Source: Escherichia phage PECP14. Taken from it: a stretch of 64,000 nt of DNA. The stretch is from sequence record OQ870555.1. One strand, 5' to 3'. A model generated the notes under the pieces. It was not told the origin of the DNA, did no database searches, and was given only the letters and a program-made list of their open reading frames with translations. The translations under genes and the position numbers were made by a program. Below, in pieces: positions 2,471 through 53,017 of the stretch; position 1 is the first letter of the stretch; each line of letters opens with the position of its first letter.

Positions 2471-3238
2471 TTATTCAGCAGCCGCAGCTTTTGCATCCAG
2501 TTTAGCACGCTTAGCGGCACCATCATAGTCCTTAGCAACCAGACCACGACGAGACAGCATAGATTTAACACCGCGCTCAGACTTACCAGTTTTCTCAGCG
2601 ATCTCAGCAACAGTCATGTTAGCCAGATCCAGACCTTCTAACAGATCTTCACGAGTTTTAGCACTTGAAGTTTCCTGTACCGGCATAGCAGCGATACGAC
2701 CTTCACGAAGCAGACTCAGAGCTTTACCACGGATCTGCTTAATATTGCGACCGAAGTGAGCAGCGATAGCTTCAATAGTAGCACCAGCAACAACCTGATT
2801 AACGAAATCAGTTTCTTCGTCAGGAGTGAAGGAACGAACAGCAGCAGCTTTTTCGGTTGGCTTAACAGAAGCAGTCATTTCCAGACTCAGGATCTTACCC
2901 TGTACCTGCTTAGCACCGAACTGACCACCAGCTACAGCAGCAGCGATTTCAGCGTAAGTATACTGACCAGCATGAGCGTTCAGGAAATCAACCAGTTCAG
3001 CTTCCTGCTCAGGAGTCCACGGGGATTTCTGTACTTCGTTTGCTTTCTGTACTTCGAAACCTTCTTTACGCAGCTTAGAGCCAACAGAGCGAGCGGTAAC
3101 GTCTTTGCCAGTCTCGGTAGCCAATTCAGCAGCGATAGCAGCTACTTGTTCTTGAGAGATTACAGCAACACCCAGAGCAGTGGCTTTTGCTTTCAGAGAC
3201 TCGGTTACACCTTCTACGTTCCAGTTCAGTTTAGACAT
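2471..3238 (-). CDS. hypothetical protein with three HTH-like repeats
   Basis: three repeated segments (YAEIAAAVAGG.., IEAIAAHFGRN.., VAEIAEKTGKS..); E. coli-optimal codon bias. Confidence 0.5.
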   Translation of the reverse strand: MSKLNWNVEGVTESLKAKATALGVAVISQEQVAAIAAELATETGKDVTARSVGSKLRKEGFEVQKANEVQKSPWTPEQEAELVDFLNAHAGQYTYAEIAAAVAGGQFGAKQVQGKILSLEMTASVKPTEKAAAVRSFTPDEETDFVNQVVAGATIEAIAAHFGRNIKQIRGKALSLLREGRIAAMPVQETSSAKTREDLLEGLDLANMTVAEIAEKTGKSERGVKSMLSRRGLVAKDYDGAAKRAKLDAKAAAAE

Positions 3239-4013
3239 TATTATTTTTCTCCAATAGTTCTTTAATCGACAGGATTTCTATCCCATTCGTTTCGGCTTTC
3301 TTATAAGATGAGGAAGAACGTTTTGATTCATCCTCACAGATTAGGTATTTGACGTCTTTGGTAACGGACTTCTTAACCGTATATCCTAGACTTTCTAAAT
3401 AGTTTGTTGCATCCGTTCGATTTGCAAAATCTTGCAAAGATCCGGTAATACAGACCGTGATTCCATTTGGCTGGGTAACTAAATCATCTGTAATGATGAT
3501 ATCCGCTTTAGCACCTCGAATACCTGTTGAGAATTTCCACGGTAATTCAATAACATCCTTGCCTTGTGGGGAATTTAGCCAGGTTTTGTAATTTTCTCCA
3601 GCCTTGCCGTCAGCCTTCACATCGTGGAAGCTAGTGCAATTTTGGGACAGTTTCTTTGCTGCAACCTCTCCAATAAGAGGAATTCCTAAAGAACCGAGAA
3701 CTGAACCAAAGTCAGTGTCTCCGCGAACCTTAGTATTTAACTCGCTAATCAATTTAGCGGCAACCTTGCTACCCACAGCTCCGACCAAATCTTCTTCGGT
3801 CAGGTAAAACAGTTCTGAGATCTTAGTCAGCTCCAGCTTCTCAATAGTTTTCGGGCCAAAGCCCTTTAACTTCATTTTTGTGCAGAAGTTCTCGATTAAC
3901 TTACTTGATTGCGCTGGACAGTTGGACTTATTCCTACAGAATAATTGCCCGTTGACAAGATCTAGCTTAGAACCACAAGAGGGACATTGTGTTGGAATTT
4001 CGATTTTCATCAA
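3231..4013 (-). CDS. NAD-dependent DNA ligase, C-terminal fragment (Zn-finger/HhH/BRCT)
   Basis: CPSCGSKL..C..C zinc finger, HhH-like GIPLIGEVAAKKL, BRCT-like tail. Confidence 0.7.
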   Translation of the reverse strand: MMKIEIPTQCPSCGSKLDLVNGQLFCRNKSNCPAQSSKLIENFCTKMKLKGFGPKTIEKLELTKISELFYLTEEDLVGAVGSKVAAKLISELNTKVRGDTDFGSVLGSLGIPLIGEVAAKKLSQNCTSFHDVKADGKAGENYKTWLNSPQGKDVIELPWKFSTGIRGAKADIIITDDLVTQPNGITVCITGSLQDFANRTDATNYLESLGYTVKKSVTKDVKYLICEDESKRSSSSYKKAETNGIEILSIKELLEKNNNV

Positions 4014-4212: not shown

Positions 4213-5184
4213 TTAGTCGTATACTCGCTCTACTATACAAGGGATTACACCACCAGCACGAATCACTCGAATCTGGCAACCGATCTCTAAATCGAGAGCG
4301 TTAATATAATCAACGTTATTAAGAGTTGCTTTAACGATTGTGGCATCATCAATAATCACCGGCTCGAAATAACCAACTGGAGTTACTTTACCAGAAGCCC
4401 CTACTTGCCATTCAACTTTAACAAGTGTGGTAATTTCGCCTTCTTCATCCTCTTTAATAGCAAATGCGCCACGAGGAAATTTATTAGTCCAACCTTCACG
4501 GAAGAATTTGTTGTTATCATTAATACGAACAACTTTACCATCTGTCGGAATCCATTTAAAGAAGGAACGAACATTAACAACTGTCAAGAAGTTCTCATTC
4601 TCTAGCCAAAGCATATCTTTTAAATAGGCTTCTGTAATACCGACTGTTTCCGCTGAACACTGGATACCATATGCAACGAAGATTAAACCACCTTCACCAA
4701 TACGTTGGATGAAATCATCGCTGTCTTTCAGGTTAATAGCACCTGAAGCGTAGTTACGTTTGTTCTCTACTTCTTTAGTAATGAGAACTTCACCAGTGAT
4801 TTGAGTTGGAACTTTTTGGGAAATAGTTTTAGGGATGTTCAGCATTTTAACATTATGCGTTACATCATTCCCTAGAATACCGTTACCACGAGTTAACGCT
4901 TGAACAAATTCACCATTAATATATAATAGAGAAATCGCACAACCATCTAACTTATCAGTTTCAACCTGACCTAATGGATTGAATGGAGCTTTATCACCGC
5001 GACCGTAATAGACTTTCTGCAAAGAATACATACGATACAAATGAGGAATATCACCTTTCGGTCCGATTTCTTCCTCCAGTGGGAATCTTTTAATCAGACG
5101 ATCATATTCTTCATCGGAAATAAGACTCATTCCCTGGTAGTACGCTTCTTGACAACGTTTGATAAAGTCTTTTACATTATTCAT
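4213..5184 (-). CDS. NAD-dependent DNA ligase, N-terminal adenylation fragment
   Basis: KLDGCAIS (KxDG adenylation motif), OB-fold region; separate ORF upstream of the C-terminal fragment. Confidence 0.7.
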   Translation of the reverse strand: MNNVKDFIKRCQEAYYQGMSLISDEEYDRLIKRFPLEEEIGPKGDIPHLYRMYSLQKVYYGRGDKAPFNPLGQVETDKLDGCAISLLYINGEFVQALTRGNGILGNDVTHNVKMLNIPKTISQKVPTQITGEVLITKEVENKRNYASGAINLKDSDDFIQRIGEGGLIFVAYGIQCSAETVGITEAYLKDMLWLENENFLTVVNVRSFFKWIPTDGKVVRINDNNKFFREGWTNKFPRGAFAIKEDEEGEITTLVKVEWQVGASGKVTPVGYFEPVIIDDATIVKATLNNVDYINALDLEIGCQIRVIRAGGVIPCIVERVYD

Positions 5185-12152: not shown

Positions 12153-12692
12153 TTATACCTTAAGTTTCTGAAGAGCCTTACACATTTCAAGATCTGGACT
12201 AAATTCCAGCATATAGCTGATAGCATTTAAATCTTGAAGGTTTATTCCAGTCCTGCCATTTACAATAACAGTAGGAAATTGGTACATCATAGCACCAGCA
12301 TCATCTAGGACGCACCAATGCTTGAGCTTATGTTTTTCTACGAAACGTAAGACAGAATTACCCCGAGATAAACCACCTCCAGTAAAATCTGTTGTACCAA
12401 GAAAACGATCGATCAAACCGAGTCCGGTCATAATCTGAACGTTCTCCATTTCATTTCGTACAGAAAACCATGAAGATACCCCAACAATCATTATTGGGGA
12501 TGGCTTAAGAAAGTTCTGAAAAGCCTGGAGTAATGGCTTGTAAACCCAATCACCACCAAAGAATAGCTTCTCACTATCTGGAGCATGATGGTGAGAGATG
12601 CTCGAATTGAGCACCCCATCAATATCCAGGAAAATCACAGGAGTATTACTTATTTCCACCAGTAGCATCCCACGTCCAGACTTTAACTTCAT
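12153..12692 (-). CDS. HAD-superfamily hydrolase/phosphatase-like
   Basis: motif I VIFLDIDGVLN near N-terminus. Confidence 0.45.
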   Translation of the reverse strand: MKLKSGRGMLLVEISNTPVIFLDIDGVLNSSISHHHAPDSEKLFFGGDWVYKPLLQAFQNFLKPSPIMIVGVSSWFSVRNEMENVQIMTGLGLIDRFLGTTDFTGGGLSRGNSVLRFVEKHKLKHWCVLDDAGAMMYQFPTVIVNGRTGINLQDLNAISYMLEFSPDLEMCKALQKLKV

Positions 12693-12831
12693 CAGTAAAA
12701 GGAACTGGAACCTTCAATTCACCTTTACCCCACATAACAGATAGGAACAGAGAATAAATGGTAATCATACCGATTAGGTTGACAAACCATACTAGACCTT
12801 TCCAGATACCCTTAAAAATCTTCTTCACCAT
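12646..12831 (-). CDS. small membrane protein
   Basis: start reassigned to the Met preceded by AAGGAGGG; hydrophobic segment LVWFVNLIGMITIYSLFL. Confidence 0.4.
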   Translation of the reverse strand: MVKKIFKGIWKGLVWFVNLIGMITIYSLFLSVMWGKGELKVPVPFTDEVKVWTWDATGGNK

Positions 12832-12994
12832 ATTCTCCCTCCTTAATAAGGAACTCTTTCCATTCTGCTGTATCCTCATAGATAACGCAGAAATCATCAC
12901 TCTTCCATGAGAAGTCATCAGTAGCAAATTCGAAACGGTAGCACCAACTACCGTCTGGCCATACTAAAAGATCACACATGCTTTTCTGGGACAT
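12812..12994 (-). CDS. hypothetical small protein
   Basis: internal Met start with GGAGGG SD; acidic C-terminus. Confidence 0.35.
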   Translation of the reverse strand: MSQKSMCDLLVWPDGSWCYRFEFATDDFSWKSDDFCVIYEDTAEWKEFLIKEGEYGEEDF

Positions 12995-13823
12995 AAATAT
13001 TTCCCTCCATAAAAGCTTCAACTTGATCAATAAAGTGTTTATTACCAAAAACTTCGGCAGCTCCAGCACGCCATACAGTAACACCACGTTTCTCATACTC
13101 AAGCTGTTCGTCATAACGAACTTGTGGGTTAACAACCATCATCTTAGTTCCACGACATACAGCAGGAAATAGCTCCCAGTTGAAGTCGATTACTTGGTTG
13201 CTACAACCTACTACAATAACCATATCATTGCTAGTAAGTGTATCAAACAGGTTAATCTGACCCATATACCACGGAGCCGTCTCACCAAAGAATGTTACGT
13301 TTGGTTTTACCCATTCGTAATCCTCAGGGGCAATCGCAGTATACCCAACATCTTCGATGATTTGGTTGCGACCCTGACGATAGATCACCTCTTTCAAGTA
13401 CCCGTGAGCGTGAATGATTTCATCACGAGGGATACCAGCACGTTCCAGAAGGTCATCAACGTTAGTAGTGAAGTTCTTCACGCTATCCTCACCATAACGC
13501 TGGAACCATTCTGCAATTCGCAGATGGGCAATGTTAGGCTCAACAGTCTGTAATTCCTGACGACGCATGTTGTAGAACTCATGAGTCTTGAGATACAGAT
13601 CGTTACCATCTTTATCAATGCCAGGGAAACGAGCACTGAAGTAGTTAGGATCATCTTCACCACAGAAGCGACGGAAGCCAGCTTCAAAGTTAGGCAAGCT
13701 ACATACTTCCTCTAGATCGTACTCATCCCACAAGGATTTCCCACTAGCAGTATCAGTACGGAAAGCACGAACACCACTATCTACACTCAAACCTGCACCA
13801 CTAACAACGATTAGTCTACGCAT
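12972..13823 (-). CDS. Sir2-like NAD-dependent deacylase/ADP-ribosyltransferase
   Basis: GAGLSVDSGVRAFR (Rossmann NAD motif), TTNVDDL (TQNID-like), catalytic HG. Confidence 0.65.
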   Translation of the reverse strand: MRRLIVVSGAGLSVDSGVRAFRTDTASGKSLWDEYDLEEVCSLPNFEAGFRRFCGEDDPNYFSARFPGIDKDGNDLYLKTHEFYNMRRQELQTVEPNIAHLRIAEWFQRYGEDSVKNFTTNVDDLLERAGIPRDEIIHAHGYLKEVIYRQGRNQIIEDVGYTAIAPEDYEWVKPNVTFFGETAPWYMGQINLFDTLTSNDMVIVVGCSNQVIDFNWELFPAVCRGTKMMVVNPQVRYDEQLEYEKRGVTVWRAGAAEVFGNKHFIDQVEAFMEGNIYVPEKHV

Positions 13824-25964: not shown

Positions 25965-26666
25965 ATGAAATTCAAGCCCTTTGGTATGCTGGACATTGAA
26001 TCTCTAGGTACTCCAGGAAATTGCGGTACTACTCATATTGCAATGCCTTCTTTCGCTTTTGTAGCGATGCACGGAATTGATAAAGATCCTGATCTGGTAT
26101 TCGTTACTCTAGACGTTCAAGATCAGCTTAATGCGGGTGCTAAGGTAACTGCCTCTACTATTGCATTCTGGATGGATCAAGCTAAAAACAGTCCATCTGC
26201 GCTCCATATTATGGAGGCTCTAAATGGTCGTAATCCTAAACTGATTGCCTTCCGTGATGGTAAGCATCACTGCACTAATGACGTAGGCTCTAATTATGCT
26301 GCCTTCTCTATGGCTCAGAACATTATGGAATTGTCTCTAGGAGATAATGCTCTGTATTACGGCAATGGCCCAGAGTTTGATATGACAATCTACTCTGCAA
26401 ATACGTTCCATGCCGGAACCCATGAAGAAATAGTTCCGTGGAAATTCTGGAACTTAGGTAACGTTCGATCTTTCCGTAATCAGTGGATGCAAGCTGGTTA
26501 TAGCTATAAAGATCTAGAAGCCGAAGGTGCTAGCTGGGCAAAAGCTAAAATGGAAAAGATGGACACCATTCGTTATGGAATCTATCCTGTGAAGCATGAT
26601 CCAGCATTCGATGCTTTAGTTGAAAGTTATTGTGTAGCCGTCATGATCGAAAAAATCAAAATTTGA
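25965..26666 (+). CDS. putative DEDDh-type 3'-5' exonuclease
   Basis: MLDIESLG (exo I-like) and HDPAFDALV (exo III-like H..D) motifs. Confidence 0.45.
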   Translation: MKFKPFGMLDIESLGTPGNCGTTHIAMPSFAFVAMHGIDKDPDLVFVTLDVQDQLNAGAKVTASTIAFWMDQAKNSPSALHIMEALNGRNPKLIAFRDGKHHCTNDVGSNYAAFSMAQNIMELSLGDNALYYGNGPEFDMTIYSANTFHAGTHEEIVPWKFWNLGNVRSFRNQWMQAGYSYKDLEAEGASWAKAKMEKMDTIRYGIYPVKHDPAFDALVESYCVAVMIEKIKI

Positions 26667-26973: not shown

Positions 26974-27612
26974 ATGACTACTCGTATCTCTAAAACTCGT
27001 GCTCTGGCAACTATCAAGTCTCTGGAAGCTAAAATCCGTAAAGCTACTGAACAACAGCTTTTGATTGCTGTTGGTGAAGGTAAAGACAAGAATCAAGTTG
27101 TCGTTGGTGCTGCAATCGAAGTAGATGCTCTGTCTACTCGTATTAAAACTGATTTCCAGTCTCTGCTGGATATGATGACCCAGCGTGATCATCTGAAAGC
27201 AGCGCTGATCAAGAGCAATGCTGAAACTGTTGTAGAGATCGGTTCCCGCTCTATGACTGTTGCGGAAGCAATCGAAGCTAAGCGTTCTATGGAACTCAAA
27301 GCTCAGTTGCTGGCTAACATGCGTAAGCAGTTCCATGCTGCTACTGTTAAGTTTAACACTCAGAAGGCTCAGTTTGATGCCAAGTATGAGCGTTTGCAGG
27401 ATACCATGGCTACCCGCGACAAGAAGACTTCCGAGGATGAAGTTAAGATGCAGCTTAACCTGCTGGAACTCAAGAACACTCCGTTCCTGATCGATCCGCT
27501 GGAGCTGGAAAAGCTGATCAAGCAACACGACGAAGAATACCAGGACTTTGCAACCAACGTTGACTTTGTTCTGTCTGAGTCCAACGCCTCTACTTTTATC
27601 GAAGTAGAGTAA
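26974..27612 (+). CDS. hypothetical protein (coiled-coil)
   Basis: ORF with strong codon bias. Confidence 0.5.
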   Translation: MTTRISKTRALATIKSLEAKIRKATEQQLLIAVGEGKDKNQVVVGAAIEVDALSTRIKTDFQSLLDMMTQRDHLKAALIKSNAETVVEIGSRSMTVAEAIEAKRSMELKAQLLANMRKQFHAATVKFNTQKAQFDAKYERLQDTMATRDKKTSEDEVKMQLNLLELKNTPFLIDPLELEKLIKQHDEEYQDFATNVDFVLSESNASTFIEVE

Positions 27613-27996
27613 TAATTTAAAAGACTAGTAAATCGGTAGACGAAAGCCCAAGCATCTTACCTCGCAGCAGCGGTTGAAATACGAGGTTAAATAAGACCGC
27701 TGACCATACTATAAAGTATAATCTATTGGAGATTATGTTTATTACATCAGACATTTAATCTGACACGTAAAAACAAAAGGTCGTTGGTAGTACCAACACA
27801 ACTTCAAAGATCAACGCTCAAGTATGAAAGCTGAAAAGTTAAAAGCACTCAAACTTCTAACCTTCTAAAGCTAAAAGATGCAAAGTATTCGTTGATGATT
27901 CAAACCCTAGATCAAAGGTACATGGCTCATAAGATATGGCCTGTGGCGCCTCTAGGCTGTTTATCGGTTTACTAGTCTCTCAATTTAAAAATGTAT

Positions 27997-28025
27997 TTGC
28001 TAATTAGTTTAGTTTTCTGTATAAT
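27997..28025 (+). promoter_or_regulatory. early promoter cassette
   Basis: TTGCTA-17-TATAAT + ...TAAATTGATGAGA. Confidence 0.55.
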
Positions 28026-28055
28026 ATATTTTTAAATTGATGAGACGAGGCTATT

Positions 28056-28373
28056 ATGATTTTTCATATTCTGATTGATGATGTGCGTAACCTTCATGGA
28101 ATGGACATTATCATTCGAACCCCCGAAGCCGCTGTTGAGTTTCTGAATAAAACCGATACCACAGGTCATTTCGTTTATATGGATAACGATCTGGCTGTAG
28201 ATGGTATGGAAGGTTATCAAATTCTTCGTTTACTCCTAGAATTTGGTCAGAGACCCAAGAAAGTGGTACTAGTAACCTCGAACCCAGTAGCTAAAGAGAC
28301 CATGCGTAATGATCTCTTAGACGAAGGGTATCAAGAAAGCCCTAATCGTATTGAGTACGATTGGCCGGAGTAA
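28056..28373 (+). CDS. standalone receiver (CheY-like) domain protein
   Basis: ILIDD ... FVYMDNDLAVDGMEGYQIL ... KVVLVTSNP matches receiver-domain landmarks. Confidence 0.45.
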   Translation: MIFHILIDDVRNLHGMDIIIRTPEAAVEFLNKTDTTGHFVYMDNDLAVDGMEGYQILRLLLEFGQRPKKVVLVTSNPVAKETMRNDLLDEGYQESPNRIEYDWPE

Positions 28374-28378
28374 ATAAA

Positions 28379-28828
28379 ATGAAGGCAGCTTTGCTTTTAA
28401 TAGCTGCCCTAACCTATAGCTTCAATAGTCATGCGACCTACGACTCAAAGCAGATTGATTGCATTGCAAAAAATATCTACTTCGAAGCACGAGGTGAGGG
28501 CACTAAAGGAATGATCGCAGTTGCACAGGTTACTAAAAACCGTGTTAACTCTGGTACTTTTCCTGATTCTTACTGTAAAGTAGTATATCAGTCTAACCAG
28601 TTCTCTTGGGTGGCCAAGAGACCAAAAGTTGATAAAACCGATGAGGCTTGGCAAGTTGCTAAGAATTTAGCTAGAGTGATATACTACGTTGATTTACCAC
28701 AAGATCCAACACATGGAGCGTTATACTTCCATAGTGGTAAAGATAAACCGTACTGGACAAAGAAGTTTAAGAAAACAACGAAGATTCAAGGCCATACGTT
28801 TTACAAGCCTGTGGTTAAGAAAACTTAA
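28379..28828 (+). CDS. SleB/CwlJ-type cell-wall hydrolase, secreted
   Basis: signal peptide MKAALLLIAALTYSFNSHA; NIYFEARGE...AVAQVTKNRV...QFSW motifs. Confidence 0.7.
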   Translation: MKAALLLIAALTYSFNSHATYDSKQIDCIAKNIYFEARGEGTKGMIAVAQVTKNRVNSGTFPDSYCKVVYQSNQFSWVAKRPKVDKTDEAWQVAKNLARVIYYVDLPQDPTHGALYFHSGKDKPYWTKKFKKTTKIQGHTFYKPVVKKT

Positions 28829-28837
28829 AAAATTCGA

Positions 28838-28866
28838 TTGCTTAAAGCCTTAAATTTCTGTATAAT
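28838..28866 (+). promoter_or_regulatory. early promoter cassette
   Basis: TTGCTT-17-TATAAT + ATAAATTAATGAGAGGA. Confidence 0.55.
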
Positions 28867-29518: not shown

Positions 29519-29547
29519 TTGCTAAACGCTTCAAAATTCTGTATAAT
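29519..29547 (+). promoter_or_regulatory. early promoter cassette driving a non-coding region
   Basis: TTGCTA-17-TATAAT; no ORF downstream until tRNA-Arg at 30382. Confidence 0.55.
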
Positions 29548-29569
29548 AGATTCATAAATTAGAGAACAG

Positions 29570-30381
29570 CGAGCCGATTACGCTGAGTGAGTTTAGTGAT
29601 TCCTAATAGGATAGCTATTCCACTGAATAGAGTCGGTGAGTTGGAGACTAGTAAGTACTCTGAGAGAGGCTACGAGCTAACGCTTATTGCTATTGATAGG
29701 GAACTGAAAATCTGCGGAAAACTCGGGAGCTGTCCCGAAATCTCGTAAACTCTTCTCTAGTTTATGTTAGTGGGGTGTCGAACTGACTTATGTGATAACA
29801 CTGCCAGATGCTCACAGGCTGACATTGAGCTTTACTGCTCCTTCTGGAAAGAATCGGATAACTCGGGCTTATACCGGATAAGCATTCGCTGCTGGAGTAC
29901 ATACTATGACGGTTCAGGAGGTACGCCACCTGATCAGTATTAGGTTAGAATCGAAACAGCTAAACCACGAGGAAACCTGACGGCCTCAACCAAACTCGGA
30001 ACTCGGGATCACTGCCTAGTGTGTACCCCGTTTAACCTGAGACTAGGCATCCAGCTTCGCATCGAAAATCGGAGGTGCGATTCTAACAGACCGCGTAACT
30101 ATGAGAGTGGGAAACGCTGACATGAGAGATGTCACTAATGGTGCCCAATAGTACAGGTAATTCGCGATAATTCCTGTTGAGCGGCAGCAGTAGGCTGGGA
30201 GTCATGACCTAAGCCTAACCGAGTTCTTCACATACGGAGAACATAACCACAAAGTCACCCTGACTTAAACTGGAAGATATTGTCTGACGGAAGGGCTGCA
30301 GAGCTTAATCTGAGGGGGCTGACCCTACCTACCGTCGGGTATCTTTAAGAGCTTTTATAAGAGTTCTTAAAAATACCTAAA
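29570..30381 (+). ncRNA. candidate long structured non-coding RNA / leader co-transcribed with tRNA-Arg
   Basis: ~810 bp downstream of an early promoter with no ORF of 60 aa or more on either strand; visibly GC-richer than flanking coding DNA. Confidence 0.35.
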
Positions 30382-33597: not shown

Positions 33598-33626
33598 TTG
33601 CTTGAATGCTAAATTCTCTGTATAAT
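33598..33626 (+). promoter_or_regulatory. early promoter cassette
   Basis: TTGCTT-17-TATAAT + TTATAAATTTGAGAGAGGAA. Confidence 0.55.
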
Positions 33627-33656
33627 ATATTTATAAATTTGAGAGAGGAATCAAAT

Positions 33657-34712
33657 ATGATTAAGACTGGTCTAGTAATTGGTAAGTTCGCACCATTAAC
33701 GCGTGGTCATATTAACCTAATAAACACAGCAGCAACTATGTGTGAACGAGTTATTGTTGTAGTTAGTCATGATAATCGTTGGCTGGATAAGCAGAACACA
33801 CGTGATCAGGAAGTATTACAGTTAAAGAATCGACTTCGTTGGTTAGAACAAACTTACGCGGATATTGAGCACGTTTCGGTAGAGTACATTATTGAAGATG
33901 ATATTCCTGAATATCCGAATGGTTGGCCGGAATATGCTAGAATCCTTAATGAAAATTATGGACATTTGCCTGAGATCACCATTTTCTCTAGCGAACTAGA
34001 CTATGATGCAGAATATAAGAAATATCTGCCGAAGTTTGGTCATTATATTGTAGATTCTGATCGGACTCGTGTTCCAATCTCAGCTACAATGATTCGTAAT
34101 GATCTTATGAAGTATTGGGAGTTTCTTCCTAGCGTAGTTCGTAAAGATTACGTGCGTAAGGTTGTAATCATTGGGACTGAAAGCTCAGGCAAAACAACTT
34201 TAACAAAGTACCTTGCGAAATTATATAATACTTCGTGGGTAGAAGAATATGGTCGTACTTACTGCGAAGTTGATCTAGTTGGTAATGAAGAACTCCTGAC
34301 TAGCGAGGACTATAATAAAATTGCATTCAGGCACAAAGAGCTAGAGTTTGAGGCAGAACGTACTGCAAATAAGATCATGTTTGTAGACACAAATGCTTTC
34401 ATTACAGAGTTTTATCACAGACTTTACGAGCATCGTAAAAATCCGGTTGTAACAGCTATTGCTAAAGAAGAGCATTATGATTTAGTTATAGTTTTAGCAC
34501 CTACTGTTAAGTGGGTAGATGATGGTTTACGTATTAACTCCGATCGTTCAATTACTTCTGAACTGTTCGAGCAGATGAAGAAAGAATTTCCTAATCAGTT
34601 TCCAGAAGGGCGTACTGTATATATTGACTCCCCGGACTATAAGGTTCGTATGGACGAAGCAGTAAACGCAGTAGACTGGCTGATTCATCACTTTAACGTT
34701 GGAGAGTTTTAA
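33657..34712 (+). CDS. NadR-like NMN adenylyltransferase / ribosylnicotinamide kinase
   Basis: GKFAPLTRGH (HxGH nucleotidyltransferase) and GTESSGKTTL (Walker A kinase). Confidence 0.65.
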   Translation: MIKTGLVIGKFAPLTRGHINLINTAATMCERVIVVVSHDNRWLDKQNTRDQEVLQLKNRLRWLEQTYADIEHVSVEYIIEDDIPEYPNGWPEYARILNENYGHLPEITIFSSELDYDAEYKKYLPKFGHYIVDSDRTRVPISATMIRNDLMKYWEFLPSVVRKDYVRKVVIIGTESSGKTTLTKYLAKLYNTSWVEEYGRTYCEVDLVGNEELLTSEDYNKIAFRHKELEFEAERTANKIMFVDTNAFITEFYHRLYEHRKNPVVTAIAKEEHYDLVIVLAPTVKWVDDGLRINSDRSITSELFEQMKKEFPNQFPEGRTVYIDSPDYKVRMDEAVNAVDWLIHHFNVGEF

Positions 34713-34713
34713 T

Positions 34714-35391
34714 ATGACTAACTATCTTGTAAATGACTTTAAAAACTGGAAACCTTTGGAATATCTGTGGCTGTTTATAGCAGTCGCCTTTATTAGTTTA
34801 GCTAACTATAATGGTACAGCTCTAGATTGGGCTACTGCAATAACCAACGTGGTTTGTGTTATTCTGGTTGCAAAAGGACGTGTTTCCAACTATATTTGGG
34901 GCTTAGTTGGTGTTCTTACCTATGGTATTACAGCTTTAAACGCAGATCTTTATGGTAACGCTGCACTAAACCTGCTATACTACGTTCCTATGCAGTTTTA
35001 TGGAATGTACTTATGGCATAAAAATAAGCCAAGTAATCTGCCAGATGTTCCAACTAAGGTTCTGACTAAAGCCCAAGCTCTGCTGACTCTAGGGATTCTA
35101 GCAGTAGCCACGTTAGGGTATGGTAGTTTCTTAGCTACTACGGCTGATCCATTCCCAATGTTGGATGCATTTACTGCGGTAGGTAGTGTGATCGCTATGT
35201 GGCTTATGGTTAAGCAGTATGCCGAGCAGTGGCTGATCTGGATTGCTATTAACATTGGTACTGTATATATTTGGCTTGTAACTGCCCAGTCTACGGGTGC
35301 TTCTTATGCAATCCTAGCAATGTGGCTGGTGTTCTTAGGTAACTCTATTATGGGAGCCTATAAAGGCTACTTTGTAAGAGTTAACAAATAA
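34714..35391 (+). CDS. pnuC: PnuC-like nicotinamide riboside transporter
   Basis: polytopic membrane protein with PnuC-like W/Y-rich helices; directly follows NadR-like gene. Confidence 0.6.
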   Translation: MTNYLVNDFKNWKPLEYLWLFIAVAFISLANYNGTALDWATAITNVVCVILVAKGRVSNYIWGLVGVLTYGITALNADLYGNAALNLLYYVPMQFYGMYLWHKNKPSNLPDVPTKVLTKAQALLTLGILAVATLGYGSFLATTADPFPMLDAFTAVGSVIAMWLMVKQYAEQWLIWIAINIGTVYIWLVTAQSTGASYAILAMWLVFLGNSIMGAYKGYFVRVNK

Positions 35392-42865: not shown

Positions 42866-43069
42866 ATGAAACACATTGTTAAGTATACCGAAAGCGAACG
42901 TGGCTGGGGTGGTGAAATCTGGTATCGTCCATTTGACACCGAGGCCGAAGCCTTGATGGAAGTTAATGATGTAAATAAAGATCTACCTAAAGATCATGTG
43001 CCAACATACTACATCCAAGCTGAGTATATTGGTGTTAAGGATAAGGTTCCCGAAGGTTACAAGTTTTAA
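42866..43069 (+). CDS. hypothetical protein
   Basis: start after tRNA-Ser with AAGGAAA SD. Confidence 0.45.
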   Translation: MKHIVKYTESERGWGGEIWYRPFDTEAEALMEVNDVNKDLPKDHVPTYYIQAEYIGVKDKVPEGYKF

Positions 43070-43388
43070 ATAATTCTTGAAGTATGCCGGAATCGGTAGA
43101 CGGGGCTTCCTAAAGGGCGTAAGGGGAACATCCACTCCTCATAAGATACCCGAAAACGAGGCTGAGATAAATGGTCTATCTCGTGAAGGTTCAAGTCCTT
43201 CTGCTTCTTGATACATCAATGGCTCAAAGAGTAACGGTGCACCTTTCTAGAGAATTTCCTGGGCGAGAATCCAGGTGTAATCAACTAGTTGTTAGTGTGA
43301 TGAGTTTCGGAGAGCCGCCACAATTGAAGTCTTTAGAATGGGTATCGCCCTTTAGCCCCTCCGAAAGGGATAACTAGAGATTTCAATT

Positions 43389-51950: not shown

Positions 51951-52607
51951 GTGGAAAAGTTTCTACAACTATTAACGGTACTGCTCCAAGAAGCGAAAGA
52001 TCCAGCTTCGCTACTAAAACGTCTGCTAACTATCTTAGTTGCTGTCATTATTTTCTTGTTTGTAAGTAACACTAGCGAGGTGATGTCATTTTTAAAGACT
52101 TTCTCCACGTCTGCGGTTTTACAGGATGTTCAAACCCAAAGGATAGATAACTTTCCTAATGTAGCACGAGAAAAGAGCATGGTCCTTTTCTCTCAGACGG
52201 GTGCGGATGCTGTTTTTGTAGTCAAGTATAAACCCGATGCTATAAACGATTATTCGAACATTATTGCATGGGAAAGCAATGCGCAATTGGATAGGGCTGA
52301 CTTGGCCGATAAAGCAGTAAACAAGACGTCTGAACTTTATAGACGTCACCTGGAAGGCTTTAACTACGCTTCGGATTTAAGTGTAAAAGTAAATAAATAT
52401 ATGGGGTCAAATATACCCGCGTTTAAGAACGTTACTTTTAATTACGTCTACACTTGTCCGTATTTCAATCTAAATAATATCTATGCTGGATACATAGGTA
52501 TTGCCTGGAAGGATAAACCCGTAGATACAGCTGACTCGGAACAATTTAATGAGTACTTAACAAAGCTTTGCTCACCGCAGCAAAGATCATTAGGTAGATC
52601 TATATGA
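51951..52607 (+). CDS. membrane protein, holin candidate
   Basis: GTG start with GGAGG SD; N-terminal TM; immediately upstream of endolysin. Confidence 0.4.
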   Translation: MEKFLQLLTVLLQEAKDPASLLKRLLTILVAVIIFLFVSNTSEVMSFLKTFSTSAVLQDVQTQRIDNFPNVAREKSMVLFSQTGADAVFVVKYKPDAINDYSNIIAWESNAQLDRADLADKAVNKTSELYRRHLEGFNYASDLSVKVNKYMGSNIPAFKNVTFNYVYTCPYFNLNNIYAGYIGIAWKDKPVDTADSEQFNEYLTKLCSPQQRSLGRSI

Positions 52608-53017
52608 GTTTTAAATTTGGTAAAAATAGCGAAAAACAATTAGCAACTGTTAAGCCCGAGCTACAAAAGGTAGCTCGTAGGGCTTTAGAACTATCTCCGT
52701 ATGATTTCACAATCGTACAAGGTATTCGTACAGTAGCACAAAGTGCCCAAAACATTGCTAATGGTACTTCATTTTTGAAAGACCCTAGCAAGAGTAAACA
52801 TGTAACGGGAGACGCTATCGATTTTGCACCATATATTAATGGTAAGATTGATTGGAAAGATCTGGAAGCATTTTGGGCTGTTAAGAAGGCTTTTGAACAA
52901 GCTGGTAAGGAACTTGGTGTCAAACTTCGTTTTGGTGCCGACTGGAATAGTTCTGGTGATTATCATGATGAGATCGATCGTGGTACTTACGACGGTGGTC
53001 ACGTAGAATTAGTCTGA
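52604..53017 (+). CDS. lys: endolysin, L-alanyl-D-glutamate peptidase (M15-like)
   Basis: SKHVTGDAIDF ... DGGHVEL zinc-ligand H/D/H pattern; 137 aa. Confidence 0.65.
   Translation: MSFKFGKNSEKQLATVKPELQKVARRALELSPYDFTIVQGIRTVAQSAQNIANGTSFLKDPSKSKHVTGDAIDFAPYINGKIDWKDLEAFWAVKKAFEQAGKELGVKLRFGADWNSSGDYHDEIDRGTYDGGHVELV

What the first reader, a model, noticed from the sequence alone, without database searches (positions are those of the whole stretch)
28056..28828. Orphan receiver-domain-like protein next to a secreted SleB-type cell-wall hydrolase
The 105-aa ORF matches response-regulator receiver landmarks (ILIDD, YMDNDLAVDGMEGYQIL, VVLVTSNP) but has no output domain or kinase partner. The next gene, overlapping by 13 nt, encodes a signal-peptide-bearing SleB/CwlJ-family hydrolase (NIYFEARGE...QFSW), separate from the endolysin at 52604-53017. 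A phage CheY-like protein could hijack host phosphorelays; the hydrolase could modify peptidoglycan early in infection.
Basis: partly seen in the sequence, partly recalled or inferred. Interest (0 to 1): 0.55.

Follow-up and report, generated by a model that had tools for sequence, protein, structure and literature searches.

The report
T5 cREC protein and exported hydrolase
These are two already-catalogued early genes of a T5-like phage: a stripped-down receiver-fold protein of the 'cREC' family, predicted to be a cyclic-phosphate esterase rather than a signalling protein, and a secreted SleB-type cell-wall enzyme. The pair is ordinary, but an unannotated, strongly conserved structured RNA lies just upstream.

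Summary
The window is a T5-like phage (Epseptimavirus, about 99% identical to deposited genomes). Both ORFs are real and under purifying selection (dN/dS about 0.1 against T5).

**ORF2** is the T5.083 homologue, a Hydrolase_2 (SleB/CwlJ) domain with a Sec-type signal peptide and the catalytic Glu36. Its start is most likely ATG 28379, which leaves a 5-nt gap rather than a 13-nt overlap.

The two genes share a T5 early promoter. Their adjacency is lineage-specific: they are separated in phage My1, and cREC is absent from the corresponding locus in PR1, Sealy and Slocum. One product is cytoplasmic and the other periplasmic, so functional coupling is unlikely.

Both genes are already annotated in public records.

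Noticed in passing: the cREC slot holds swapped alleles, one fused to an HNH endonuclease, and a 370-nt covariation-supported RNA with a tRNA-like pseudoknot ending in ACCA lies at 27615-27988.

The parts
27615..27988 (+). Conserved structured non-coding RNA element directly upstream of the operon. Its relation to the two genes is unproven. In AAS21-like phages, My1 and Slocum it forms the 5' leader of the next gene.
   Evidence: - MFE z-score is -5.0 against shuffles.
- 50 pairs, 97.5% of cells paired, 28 pairs with compensatory changes; slid controls give 33-45% paired.
- Helices: H1 27622-27642 with 27958-27978; pseudoknot H2 27659-27664 with 27682-27687; H3 27668-27674 with 27696-27702; then an invariant ACCA at 27703-27706.
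- No Rfam match.
27997..28025 (+). Sigma-70-type promoter of the cREC-hydrolase unit (TTGCTA-17 nt-TATAAT), bracketed by an 18-nt palindrome (27980-27997 and 28023-28040).
   Evidence: - Promoter scan: 10 of 12 matches.
- T5 carries an annotated promoter at the equivalent position, 43067-43141.
- Palindrome found.
28047..28050 (+). Shine-Dalgarno sequence GAGG of ORF1, 5 nt before the ATG.
   Evidence: Read directly from the sequence.
28056..28373 (+). cREC protein: 105 aa, T5.084 homologue, stand-alone truncated receiver-fold domain, predicted cytoplasmic.
   Evidence: - PF20274: E 1.1e-14, 55 bits against a cutoff of 27.
- phrog_1479: E 9e-30.
- D8, D9, R21, D43, D45 and G53 are invariant in 80 family members.
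28367..28370 (+). Shine-Dalgarno sequence GGAG of the hydrolase gene. It lies inside the end of ORF1, 8 nt before ATG 28379.
   Evidence: Read directly from the sequence.
28379..28828 (+). Exported SleB/CwlJ-type cell-wall hydrolase: 149 aa, T5.083 homologue. Signal peptide is residues 1-19 (nt 28379-28435, predicted cleavage SHA|TY). Catalytic Glu36 is at nt 28484-28486. Cys28 and Cys66 are invariant.
   Evidence: - PF07486: E 4e-26.
- PDB 4f55 (SleB): E 7e-9, with FEARGE aligned to GESRGE.
- N-terminal hydrophobic segment, E36 and both Cys conserved in 6 Demerecviridae.
28838..28866 (+). Next promoter (TTGCTT-17 nt-TATAAT). It marks the downstream boundary of the two-gene unit.
   Evidence: Read from the sequence. 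It corresponds to T5 'promoter P-D/E 33' upstream of T5.082. It falls below the scan threshold used.

Best explanation
**Shown**
- The region is a two-gene early transcription unit of a T5-like phage, the homologue of T5.084-T5.083.
- Gene 1 encodes a 12-kDa acidic, stand-alone member of the cREC family (PF20274). This is a minimal receiver-fold domain with five strands and three helices.
- It keeps the receiver acidic pocket: D8 and D9 after β1, D43 at the end of β3, and T74 at the end of β4. It adds invariant D45, R11/R21 and N76.
- It has lost helices α1 and α5 and the Lys109 equivalent.
- Gene 2 encodes a 15-kDa basic, single-domain Hydrolase_2 (SleB/CwlJ-type) enzyme. It has an N-terminal Sec-type signal peptide, the catalytic Glu36 and two conserved cysteines.

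**Inferred**
- cREC is not a phosphorelay component. It is probably a cytoplasmic phosphoesterase that uses the receiver/HAD-like Asp pocket. By analogy with HAD 'DxD' phosphatases, D43 would be the nucleophile and D45 the acid/base.
- Its likely substrates are cyclic phosphates: 2',3'-cyclic ends of cleaved RNA or tRNA, or cyclic ADP-ribose-type products. This would serve phage RNA repair or NAD/ADPr counter-defence.
- The hydrolase is exported by Sec independently of the holin. It probably acts as a lytic transglycosylase on host peptidoglycan in the periplasm, as an accessory to the canonical holin-M15 endolysin cassette.
- The two genes are co-expressed but not functionally coupled.
For: **Identity and context**
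- The window is 99% identical to Epseptimavirus genomes. Some public records already name the pair 'cyclic-phosphate processing receiver domain-containing protein' and 'cell wall hydrolase SleB'.

**cREC**
- Pfam and PHROG hits.
- 403 representative clusters at E<=0.001, nearly all stand-alone proteins of about 100 aa.
- Invariant D8, D9, R21, D43, D45 and G53.
- AF2 model pLDDT 90 with topology β-β-α-β-α-β-α-β.
- BFVD matches are other phage cREC proteins.
- Register against CheY: D43=D57, T74=T87, S95=K109, P96=P110.
- The same window encodes SIR2 plus HAD_SAK_2 (12153-13823), NadR plus PnuC (33606-35391), an Rv2179c-like 3'-5' exoribonuclease (25965-26666), a YqeY-like protein and 28 tRNAs. 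This fits the NAD/RNA-repair setting described for T5-like phage SP15 in PMC9503650.

**Hydrolase**
- Family and structure matches.
- Signal-peptide-like N-terminus, E36, C28 and C66 conserved down to 38% identity.
- The catalytic Glu is essential for SleB lytic transglycosylase activity (PMC12331253).

**Transcription unit**
- Promoters flank the pair.

**No coupling**
- In My1 the two genes lie 2.8 kb apart.
- In PR1, Sealy and Slocum the hydrolase is present without a cREC gene beside it.
- Seven distant cREC loci contain no Hydrolase_2 gene.
Against: - No cREC protein has been characterised experimentally. PMC9503650 says so, and no later paper was found. The esterase activity and its substrate are therefore inference.
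- My own sample of 7 distant cREC loci showed no RNA ligase, sirtuin, Nudix or Macro gene within about 6 kb. These genes sit in arrays of small unknown phage genes, so the published contextual argument was not independently reproduced.
- No RNA ligase was found among the window ORFs scanned.
- In this genome the SIR2/HAD genes are 15 kb away on the other strand.
- The signal peptide is judged by simple rules (hydrophobicity, S-H-A at -3..-1), not by a trained predictor.
- The glycosidic-bond specificity of the hydrolase on ordinary (non-cortex) peptidoglycan is unknown.
Confidence: 0.6

Rival explanations
1. Phosphorelay hijack. The protein is a CheY-like phospho-acceptor that draws phosphoryl groups from host histidine kinases, Hpt proteins or acetyl phosphate, and so rewires host signalling.
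For: - It has a receiver fold.
- The acidic pair D8/D9, the D57-equivalent D43 and the T87-equivalent T74 are conserved.
- It is a single-domain protein, like CheY.
Against: - No PF00072 hit at E<=10.
- The family profile against solved receiver domains gives only E 0.09-0.9.
- Helices α1 and α5 are absent from a pLDDT-90 model.
- There is no Lys109 equivalent.
- The extra invariant D45 and R21 are atypical of receiver domains.
- The family is reported never to occur with histidine kinases (PMC7824862).
- No kinase was seen in any of the 9 loci examined with Pfam-annotated genes.
Confidence: 0.07
2. Non-catalytic binder. The cREC pocket binds, rather than cleaves, a phosphorylated ligand. It would act as a sponge for a nucleotide immune signal, or as a small regulatory or adaptor protein that binds a host or phage partner.
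For: - Small stand-alone acidic phage proteins are often sponges or inhibitors (my own knowledge).
- The gene sits in accessory-gene arrays in distant phages.
- The slot shows allele replacement, which is typical of host-interaction genes.
Against: - Strict invariance of four acidic residues plus Arg in 80 diverse members is more typical of a catalytic site.
- Both receiver domains and HAD enzymes use this geometry for phosphoryl chemistry (my own knowledge).
Confidence: 0.2
3. Functional pair. cREC and the hydrolase work together, for example with cREC controlling hydrolase expression or export, or processing a cell-wall precursor.
For: - They share a promoter, with a 5-nt spacing and the hydrolase SD inside the end of cREC.
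- The order is conserved through Markadamsvirinae and AAS21-like phages, even where cREC is only 57-66% identical.
- One distant locus has SLT-helicase-cREC.
Against: - The predicted compartments differ. cREC has no signal peptide, and the hydrolase is exported.
- In My1 the two genes are 2.8 kb apart. In PR1, Sealy and Slocum the hydrolase has no cREC beside it.
- cREC alleles are swapped independently of the hydrolase.
- More than 1400 phage records have the hydrolase domain but only about 490 have cREC.
Confidence: 0.05
4. The hydrolase is a second true endolysin that contributes directly to final lysis, rather than an early remodelling or accessory enzyme.
For: - PHROG families of this domain are annotated 'endolysin'.
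- Many Gram-negative phages annotate this domain as their endolysin.
Against: - It lies 23 kb from the holin-endolysin cassette.
- It has its own early-type promoter and a cleavable-type signal peptide, so it would reach the wall before and independently of holin triggering.
- No experimental data were found.
Confidence: 0.25

Closest known systems
T5.084 / T5.083 of Escherichia phage T5 (NC_005859), and the identical genes in Epseptimavirus genomes
   Same: - Orthologues: 92% (cREC) and 89% (hydrolase) amino-acid identity to T5, and 100% to many Salmonella phages.
- Same order, same flanking promoters and same neighbouring genes.
   Different: Nothing substantive. T5.084 is annotated 'hypothetical', and T5.083 is annotated 'endolysin' in RefSeq.
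cREC family (Pfam PF20274; Iyer, Aravind and co-workers, PMC7824862 and PMC9503650)
   Same: - Profile match above threshold.
- Conserved Asp residues.
- Stand-alone architecture of about 100 aa, phage-borne, no histidine kinase.
- The genome also carries the sirtuin + SAK-HAD, NadR and tRNA genes discussed for T5-like phage SP15.
   Different: - Here the immediate neighbour is a cell-wall hydrolase, not a Nudix, sirtuin, 2H or RNA-ligase gene.
- The activity remains a prediction.
CheY and two-component receiver domains (PF00072)
   Same: - Acidic pair after β1, Asp at the end of β3, Thr at the end of β4, and a Pro at the K109+1 position.
   Different: - No profile hit.
- α1 and α5 are missing.
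- No Lys109.
- Extra invariant D45, R11, R21 and N76.
- No kinase partner.
HAD-superfamily phosphatases (DxD motif)
   Same: The 'D43-N-D45' motif resembles the HAD nucleophile plus Asp+2 acid/base pair in an acidic pocket. This resemblance and the known CheY/HAD active-site similarity rest on my own knowledge.
   Different: The motif sits after β3, not β1. There is no cap domain and no HAD profile hit. The resemblance is an analogy only.
Bacillus SleB / CwlJ spore-cortex lytic enzymes (PDB 4f55, 4fet)
   Same: - Same catalytic domain, with E 7e-9 to 4f55.
- The catalytic Glu motif is conserved.
- Single-domain architecture, like CwlJ.
   Different: - It lacks SleB's N-terminal peptidoglycan-binding domain.
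- It has a Sec signal peptide.
- The host has no muramic-δ-lactam cortex, so the substrate must be ordinary peptidoglycan.
SleB-like lytic transglycosylases of Gram-negative bacteria (for example Zymomonas mobilis SleB, bioRxiv 10.64898/2026.07.21.739787)
   Same: A Hydrolase_2 enzyme acting on vegetative Gram-negative peptidoglycan.
   Different: That enzyme has a cellular housekeeping role. This one is phage-encoded and expressed from an early promoter.

Membership tests
Two-component receiver domain (Response_reg, PF00072; CheY-like) | Significant match to the receiver sequence profile | tested here: not met
   - No PF00072 hit even at E<=10.
- The cREC family profile against solved response regulators gives E 0.09-0.9.
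- hhalign against CheY gives probability 2.4%.
Two-component receiver domain (Response_reg, PF00072; CheY-like) | (βα)5 flavodoxin-like fold | tested here: inconclusive
   - However, the model has only three helices, with α1 and α5 absent.
- This rests on a predicted structure.
Two-component receiver domain (Response_reg, PF00072; CheY-like) | Acidic pair after β1 and phospho-acceptor Asp at the end of β3 | tested here: met
   - D8, D9 and D43 are invariant in 80 family members.
- D43 aligns with CheY D57.
- Phosphorylation itself is not testable here.
Two-component receiver domain (Response_reg, PF00072; CheY-like) | Conserved Thr/Ser at the end of β4 and Lys at the end of β5 | tested here: not met
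   - T74 aligns with T87.
- The K109 position is S95, and no Lys is conserved there in the family.
Two-component receiver domain (Response_reg, PF00072; CheY-like) | Cognate histidine kinase or Hpt partner, or an output domain | tested here: not met
   - None among the 42 window ORFs scanned with Pfam.
- None in the T5 and SIY1lw annotation of the stretches fetched (together window ~15-42 kb).
- None near cREC in the 9 loci with Pfam-annotated genes.
cREC (PF20274, cyclic-phosphate processing receiver domain) | Profile match above the curated threshold | tested here: met
   55.3 bits against a cutoff of 27, E 1.1e-14, covering profile positions 2-86 of 88.
cREC (PF20274, cyclic-phosphate processing receiver domain) | Conserved catalytic-type Asp residues at receiver positions | tested here: met
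   D8, D9, D43 and D45 are invariant.
cREC (PF20274, cyclic-phosphate processing receiver domain) | Genomic association with NAD/ADPr-processing or RNA-repair genes, and never with histidine kinases | tested here: inconclusive
   - The same window has SIR2 + HAD_SAK_2, NadR + PnuC, an Rv2179c-like exoribonuclease and 28 tRNAs. None of these is adjacent to cREC.
- Seven distant loci show no such neighbours and no kinase.
cREC (PF20274, cyclic-phosphate processing receiver domain) | Cyclic-phosphate or cADPr phosphoesterase activity | not testable with these tools
   This is a prediction only, and the family is stated to be experimentally uncharacterised (PMC9503650). No later paper was found.
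SleB/CwlJ cell-wall hydrolase (Hydrolase_2, PF07486) | Profile match and similarity to the solved SleB catalytic domain | tested here: met
   - PF07486: 92 bits against a cutoff of 27, full-length 1-100/100.
- PDB 4f55: E 7.1e-9.
SleB/CwlJ cell-wall hydrolase (Hydrolase_2, PF07486) | Catalytic glutamate | tested here: met
   - E36 in YFEARGE aligns with the Glu of YGESRGE in 4f55.
- E36 is invariant in 6 Demerecviridae homologues.
- PMC12331253 states that SleB's catalytic glutamate is essential for its activity, but does not give its position. That it is the Glu of this motif rests on my own recollection of the 4f55 structure paper, which could not be opened.
SleB/CwlJ cell-wall hydrolase (Hydrolase_2, PF07486) | N-terminal peptidoglycan-binding domain (SleB proper) | tested here: not met
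   The mature protein is a single domain of 130 aa, and there is no PG_binding hit. The architecture is like CwlJ.
SleB/CwlJ cell-wall hydrolase (Hydrolase_2, PF07486) | Lytic transglycosylase chemistry and substrate specificity | not testable with these tools
   This needs muropeptide analysis.
Sec-exported protein | Cleavable N-terminal signal peptide | tested here: inconclusive
   - The N-terminus has an MK n-region, an 11-residue hydrophobic core (Kyte-Doolittle 2.6) and S-H-A at positions -3 to -1.
- The equivalent segment is present in all 6 homologues down to 38% identity.
- The two Cys are invariant.
- No trained signal-peptide predictor was available.
Canonical phage lysis cassette endolysin | Linked to holin and spanin genes | tested here: not met
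   The holin T (51951-52607) and the M15 peptidase (52604-53017) lie 23 kb away.

The most novel reading that the evidence does not exclude
This locus could be a counter-defence and RNA-repair hot spot with two linked parts.

1. cREC may be an enzyme that opens 2',3'-cyclic phosphates on nuclease-cut tRNAs, or destroys cyclic ADP-ribose-type immune signals. The wholesale allele swapping in its slot, including an HNH-endonuclease fusion, would then reflect an arms race.

2. The adjacent 370-nt RNA may be an undescribed class of phage non-coding RNA. It has a long closing helix, a covarying pseudoknot that ends in ACCA like a tRNA acceptor arm, and an A-rich core with 6-9 AAAG repeats. It could act as a tRNA mimic, decoy or protein sponge that belongs to the same module.
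Probability: 0.2. Interest if true: 0.75.

Novelty: already known. Interest (0 to 1): 0.3.

Why it matters
As submitted, the finding re-discovers two catalogued T5 genes, and the 'phosphorelay hijack' idea does not hold.

The finding still has some value because T5 is a tractable model phage. It carries a minimal, stand-alone member of the cREC family, for which no experiment exists. A clean biochemical test on T5.084 would settle a five-year-old prediction about how phages process cyclic-phosphate or ADP-ribose-derived molecules.

The exported SleB-type enzyme is a conserved holin-independent wall hydrolase in Demerecviridae, and its role in infection is unknown.

The more novel item is outside the finding. 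An unannotated structured RNA is more conserved than the genes around it. It would deserve its own study.

Tried and rejected
**Checks that came back negative**
- Classical receiver membership: no PF00072 hit. The profile search against PDB and hhalign against CheY were not significant.
- PADLOC defence models for cREC, the hydrolase, the T5.085 homologue and the exonuclease: no hits.
- Literature on T5.083, T5.084 or their accessions: none found.
- Literature on cREC beyond the two defining papers: none.
- Literature on a T5 stable or tRNA-like RNA at this site: none.
- Rfam and ARAGORN on the intergenic RNA: no family match. The only hits were spurious microRNA matches to the promoter palindrome.

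**Searches that failed or were uninformative**
- The search for related loci with the 80-sequence cREC alignment failed because it has no sufficiently conserved stretch.
- The AFDB50 fold library was unavailable.
- The SleB structure paper PMC3415495 is not held.
- Neighbourhood sampling of 7 distant cREC genes looked for Hydrolase_2, kinase or RNA-repair partners and found nothing informative.
- The DNA pattern scan for more RNA homologues returned mostly T5-like isolates and one new divergent member (L013). L017, L020, L026 and L028 look like chance matches at 33-42% identity.

**Ideas rejected**
- The 13-nt overlap was rejected in favour of the ATG 28379 start.
- Coupling between cREC and the hydrolase was rejected because the compartments differ and the adjacency is not conserved.
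Full report
**What the window is**

The 3 kb around the finding is 98-99% identical over its full length to many T5-like phages of Salmonella and E. coli (Demerecviridae, Markadamsvirinae, Epseptimavirus/Tequintavirus). It matches 492 phage records in all. In T5 itself the two genes are T5.084 ('hypothetical protein, similar to KVP40.0304') and T5.083 ('endolysin'). Annotated promoters lie on each side of the pair. Salmonella phage SIY1lw already labels them 'cyclic-phosphate processing receiver domain-containing protein' and 'cell wall hydrolase SleB domain-containing protein'.

**Checking the observation**

ORF1 (28056-28373, 105 aa) and the quoted motifs are present.

The second ORF is listed mechanically from TTG 28361. 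However, an ATG at 28379 lies 8 nt after a GGAG. Public records use this start, and it is kept in relatives whose cREC is only 57-66% identical. The '13-nt overlap' is therefore more likely a 5-nt gap.

Both genes are under purifying selection against T5, with dN/dS of 0.09 and 0.10.

A sigma-70-type promoter (TTGCTA-17-TATAAT, 27997-28025) precedes ORF1. A second promoter (28838-28866) follows ORF2 and corresponds to T5 promoter P-D/E 33. The pair is therefore a two-gene early unit.

**What ORF1 is**

- It matches Pfam PF20274 cREC_REC (E 1.1e-14, 55 bits against a cutoff of 27) and phrog_1479 (E 9e-30). No Response_reg hit appears even at E<=10.
- An exhaustive profile search found 403 representative clusters at E<=0.001. 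Nearly all are stand-alone proteins of about 100 aa. A few are fusions, for example HNH_3-cREC.
- In an alignment of 80 diverse members, D8, D9, R21, D43, D45 and G53 are invariant. R11, D17, P67, N76, L87 and Y92 are nearly invariant.
- An AlphaFold model built on 15 homologues has pLDDT 90 and pTM 0.85. Its topology is β1-loop-β2-α-β3-α-β4-α-β5.
- The best viral-structure matches are other phage cREC proteins.
- The profile-sequence alignment with CheY has low probability, but it puts D43 on D57, T74 on T87, S95 on K109 and P96 on P110.

The domain is nevertheless a reduced one: helices α1 and α5 and the conserved Lys are missing, and D45, R11/R21 and N76 are added as invariant residues.

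**Is it a phosphorelay protein?**

I judge this unlikely (about 7%).
- It fails the sequence-family test.
- It lacks α1, which is the main kinase-docking surface (established knowledge of receiver domains).
- It lacks the Lys that contacts the phosphoryl group.
- The family was defined as never occurring with histidine kinases (PMC7824862).
- No kinase appears among the 42 window ORFs I scanned, in the T5 and SIY1lw annotation of the stretches fetched (together window ~15-42 kb), or near cREC in the nine loci whose called genes carry Pfam hits.

**How cREC probably works**

Iyer, Aravind and co-workers predicted that cREC resolves 2',3'-cyclic RNA ends or cyclic ADP-ribose derivatives. They state that this is experimentally uncharacterised (PMC7824862, PMC9503650), and I found no later paper.

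Evidence in favour in this genome:
- A SIR2-family gene next to a 'Swiss-army-knife' HAD phosphatase (12153-13823, minus strand). This is the neighbourhood described for T5-like phage SP15 in PMC9503650.
- NadR-like and PnuC NAD-salvage genes (33606-35391).
- An Rv2179c-like 3'-5' exoribonuclease 1.4 kb upstream.
- A YqeY-like protein.
- 28 tRNA genes starting 2 kb downstream.

The D43-x-D45 arrangement resembles the nucleophile and acid/base pair of HAD phosphatases. This is my inference.

Evidence against, or missing:
- None of these genes is adjacent to cREC.
- No RNA ligase was seen.
- In seven distant cREC loci the gene sits among small unknown phage genes, with no RNA-repair or NAD neighbour within 6 kb.

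I give the esterase mechanism roughly even odds and a non-catalytic binder role about 0.2.

**What ORF2 is**

- It matches PF07486 Hydrolase_2 (E 4e-26, full length) and the SleB catalytic-domain crystal structures 4f55 and 4fet (E 7e-9). FEARGE aligns with GESRGE.
- SleB's catalytic Glu is reported as essential for its lytic transglycosylase activity (PMC12331253).
- E36, C28 and C66 are invariant in six Demerecviridae homologues down to 38% identity. All six have an N-terminal hydrophobic segment with small residues before a predicted cleavage site (here MKAALLLIAALTYSFNSHA|TY).
- The mature protein is a basic single domain of 15 kDa. It lacks SleB's peptidoglycan-binding domain.
- The canonical lysis cassette (T-type holin plus M15 peptidase) lies at 51951-53017. 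This enzyme is therefore a separate hydrolase that would be exported independently of the holin.
- The domain is widespread in phages of Gram-negative bacteria, with 1450 records.
- Its presence in T5-like phages has been noted in print, without functional data (PMC3326045, PMC11180984).

**Are the two genes a functional pair?**

Probably not.
- cREC has no export signal, whereas the hydrolase does.
- In Pectobacterium phage My1 the two genes are 2.8 kb apart.
- In Providencia phage PR1, Klebsiella phage Sealy and Serratia phage Slocum, the hydrolase has no cREC gene beside it.
- None of the distant cREC genes has a Hydrolase_2 neighbour.

**Noticed on the way: allele replacement**

In an ENA T5-like contig (L002), DNA identity to the window is 84-100% on both flanks but only 57-59% inside cREC. 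Synonymous divergence is 1.36 in cREC against 0.25 in the adjacent hydrolase.

A third allele class (about 51% identical) is fused to an HNH_3 endonuclease domain at the same position in phages JLBYU43 and Shivani. The cREC slot is therefore exchanged as a cassette. This could reflect homing-endonuclease-driven replacement or selection on a host-interaction gene.

**Noticed on the way: a structured RNA**

The 443-nt gap upstream of cREC is more conserved than the flanking genes. It is 94-100% identical between the window, T5 and L002, compared with 82-91% for the genes. Over the element itself, identity to T5 is 95.5%, while synonymous sites differ by about 40%. It folds far better than shuffled sequence, with z = -5.0.

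Homologous gaps exist downstream of the T5.085 homologue in four further lineages: AAS21/KEY-like phages (L003), My1, a My1 relative (L013) and Slocum. Together with the T5-like group that makes five lineages, which are only 45-50% identical to the window.

On an 8-sequence alignment, a 50-pair structure behaves as follows:
- 97.5% of cells are paired.
- 28 pairs show compensatory double changes.
- The covariation score is 0.60.
- Controls with partners slid by 1-3 columns give 33-45% paired and scores of 0.05-0.11.
- No shuffle out of 500 reaches the observed values.

The structure has these features:
- A 21-bp closing helix (27622-27642 with 27958-27978).
- An H-type pseudoknot (27659-27664 with 27682-27687, and 27668-27674 with 27696-27702). 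Its 7-bp second stem is followed by an invariant ACCA (27703-27706). The arrangement resembles a tRNA acceptor arm.
- A 3' hairpin domain (27906-27956).
- An A-rich core with 6-9 AAAG motifs in every lineage, against about 2 expected by chance.
- Many G-U pairs, which place the RNA on the gene strand.

Rfam 15 and ARAGORN give no match. In the non-T5 lineages the element ends 12-15 nt before the ribosome-binding site of the next gene, which is cREC in L003 and the hydrolase in My1 and Slocum. In T5-like phages a palindrome-bracketed promoter lies in between. Its function is unknown, and I found no description of it.

**Verdict**

The family assignments are right at fold level. The proposed mechanism, phosphorelay hijack, is not supported. 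Both genes are already known and annotated.

The open questions are the untested biochemistry of cREC and the role of an exported wall hydrolase. The genuinely new item is the neighbouring RNA, which lies outside the finding's coordinates.

Noticed in passing
window 27615-27988 (+): Unannotated 370-nt structured RNA, more conserved than the flanking genes. It has 50 pairs, 97.5% paired, 28 with compensatory changes across 5 lineages. Features are a 21-bp closing helix, a covarying H-type pseudoknot followed by an invariant ACCA (tRNA-acceptor-like), and an A-rich core with 6-9 AAAG repeats. No Rfam or ARAGORN match.
   Followed up: yes
window 27980-27997 and 28023-28040: An 18-nt, 94%-complementary palindrome brackets the cREC promoter from its -35 to its -10 element. 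It is present in T5-like phages and absent from AAS21-like, My1 and Slocum relatives, where the RNA element abuts the next gene's ribosome-binding site. It may be an operator or an inserted promoter cassette.
   Followed up: partly
window 28056-28373; L002 6001-6318; L042 1285-2106: The cREC slot is exchanged as a cassette. L002 has 57% identity inside the gene but 84-100% in the flanks (dS 1.36 against 0.25 in the neighbouring hydrolase). JLBYU43 and Shivani carry a 273-aa HNH_3-cREC fusion at the same place.
   Followed up: partly
window 12153-12692 (-) and 12972-13823 (-): A HAD_SAK_2 ('Swiss army knife' RNA-repair phosphatase) gene lies next to a SIR2-family gene. This is the sirtuin-HAD neighbourhood proposed as an NAD-dependent RNA-repair system in T5-like phage SP15 (PMC9503650).
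   Followed up: no
window ~29550-30381 (+), promoter 29519-29547: A non-coding stretch of about 830 nt runs between the YqeY-like gene and tRNA-Arg(TCT). It corresponds to the T5 'rnaX' stable RNA of unknown function. There is no Rfam match.
   Followed up: no
window 26974-27612 (+) and 25965-26666 (+): The 212-aa T5.085 homologue is widely annotated 'tail fiber protein', yet it lies among early genes and has no Pfam or PADLOC hit. Its upstream neighbour is annotated variously as metallopeptidase or exonuclease, and matches the Rv2179c-like 3'-5' exoribonuclease family.
   Followed up: partly
L012 (Serratia phage Slocum) 2386-2851: The annotated start of the Slocum hydrolase (2534, 105 aa) removes its signal peptide. 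An upstream ATG after an SD gives MKRALLLIALFLFSF..., matching the other Demerecviridae homologues.
   Followed up: partly
window 3231-4013 (-) and 4213-5184 (-): The NAD-dependent DNA ligase is split into two ORFs. One holds the adenylation and OB domains, and the other holds the HhH and BRCT domains.
   Followed up: no
L038 4014-6321: In a distant contig, cREC directly follows a UvrD-type helicase and an SLT lytic transglycosylase. This is the only other case seen of a wall-cleaving enzyme near a cREC gene, and it is probably incidental.
   Followed up: no
L003 8120-8193 (+): ARAGORN reports a tRNA with a four-base anticodon (tgag) in the AAS21-like contig, downstream of the hydrolase region.
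   Followed up: no
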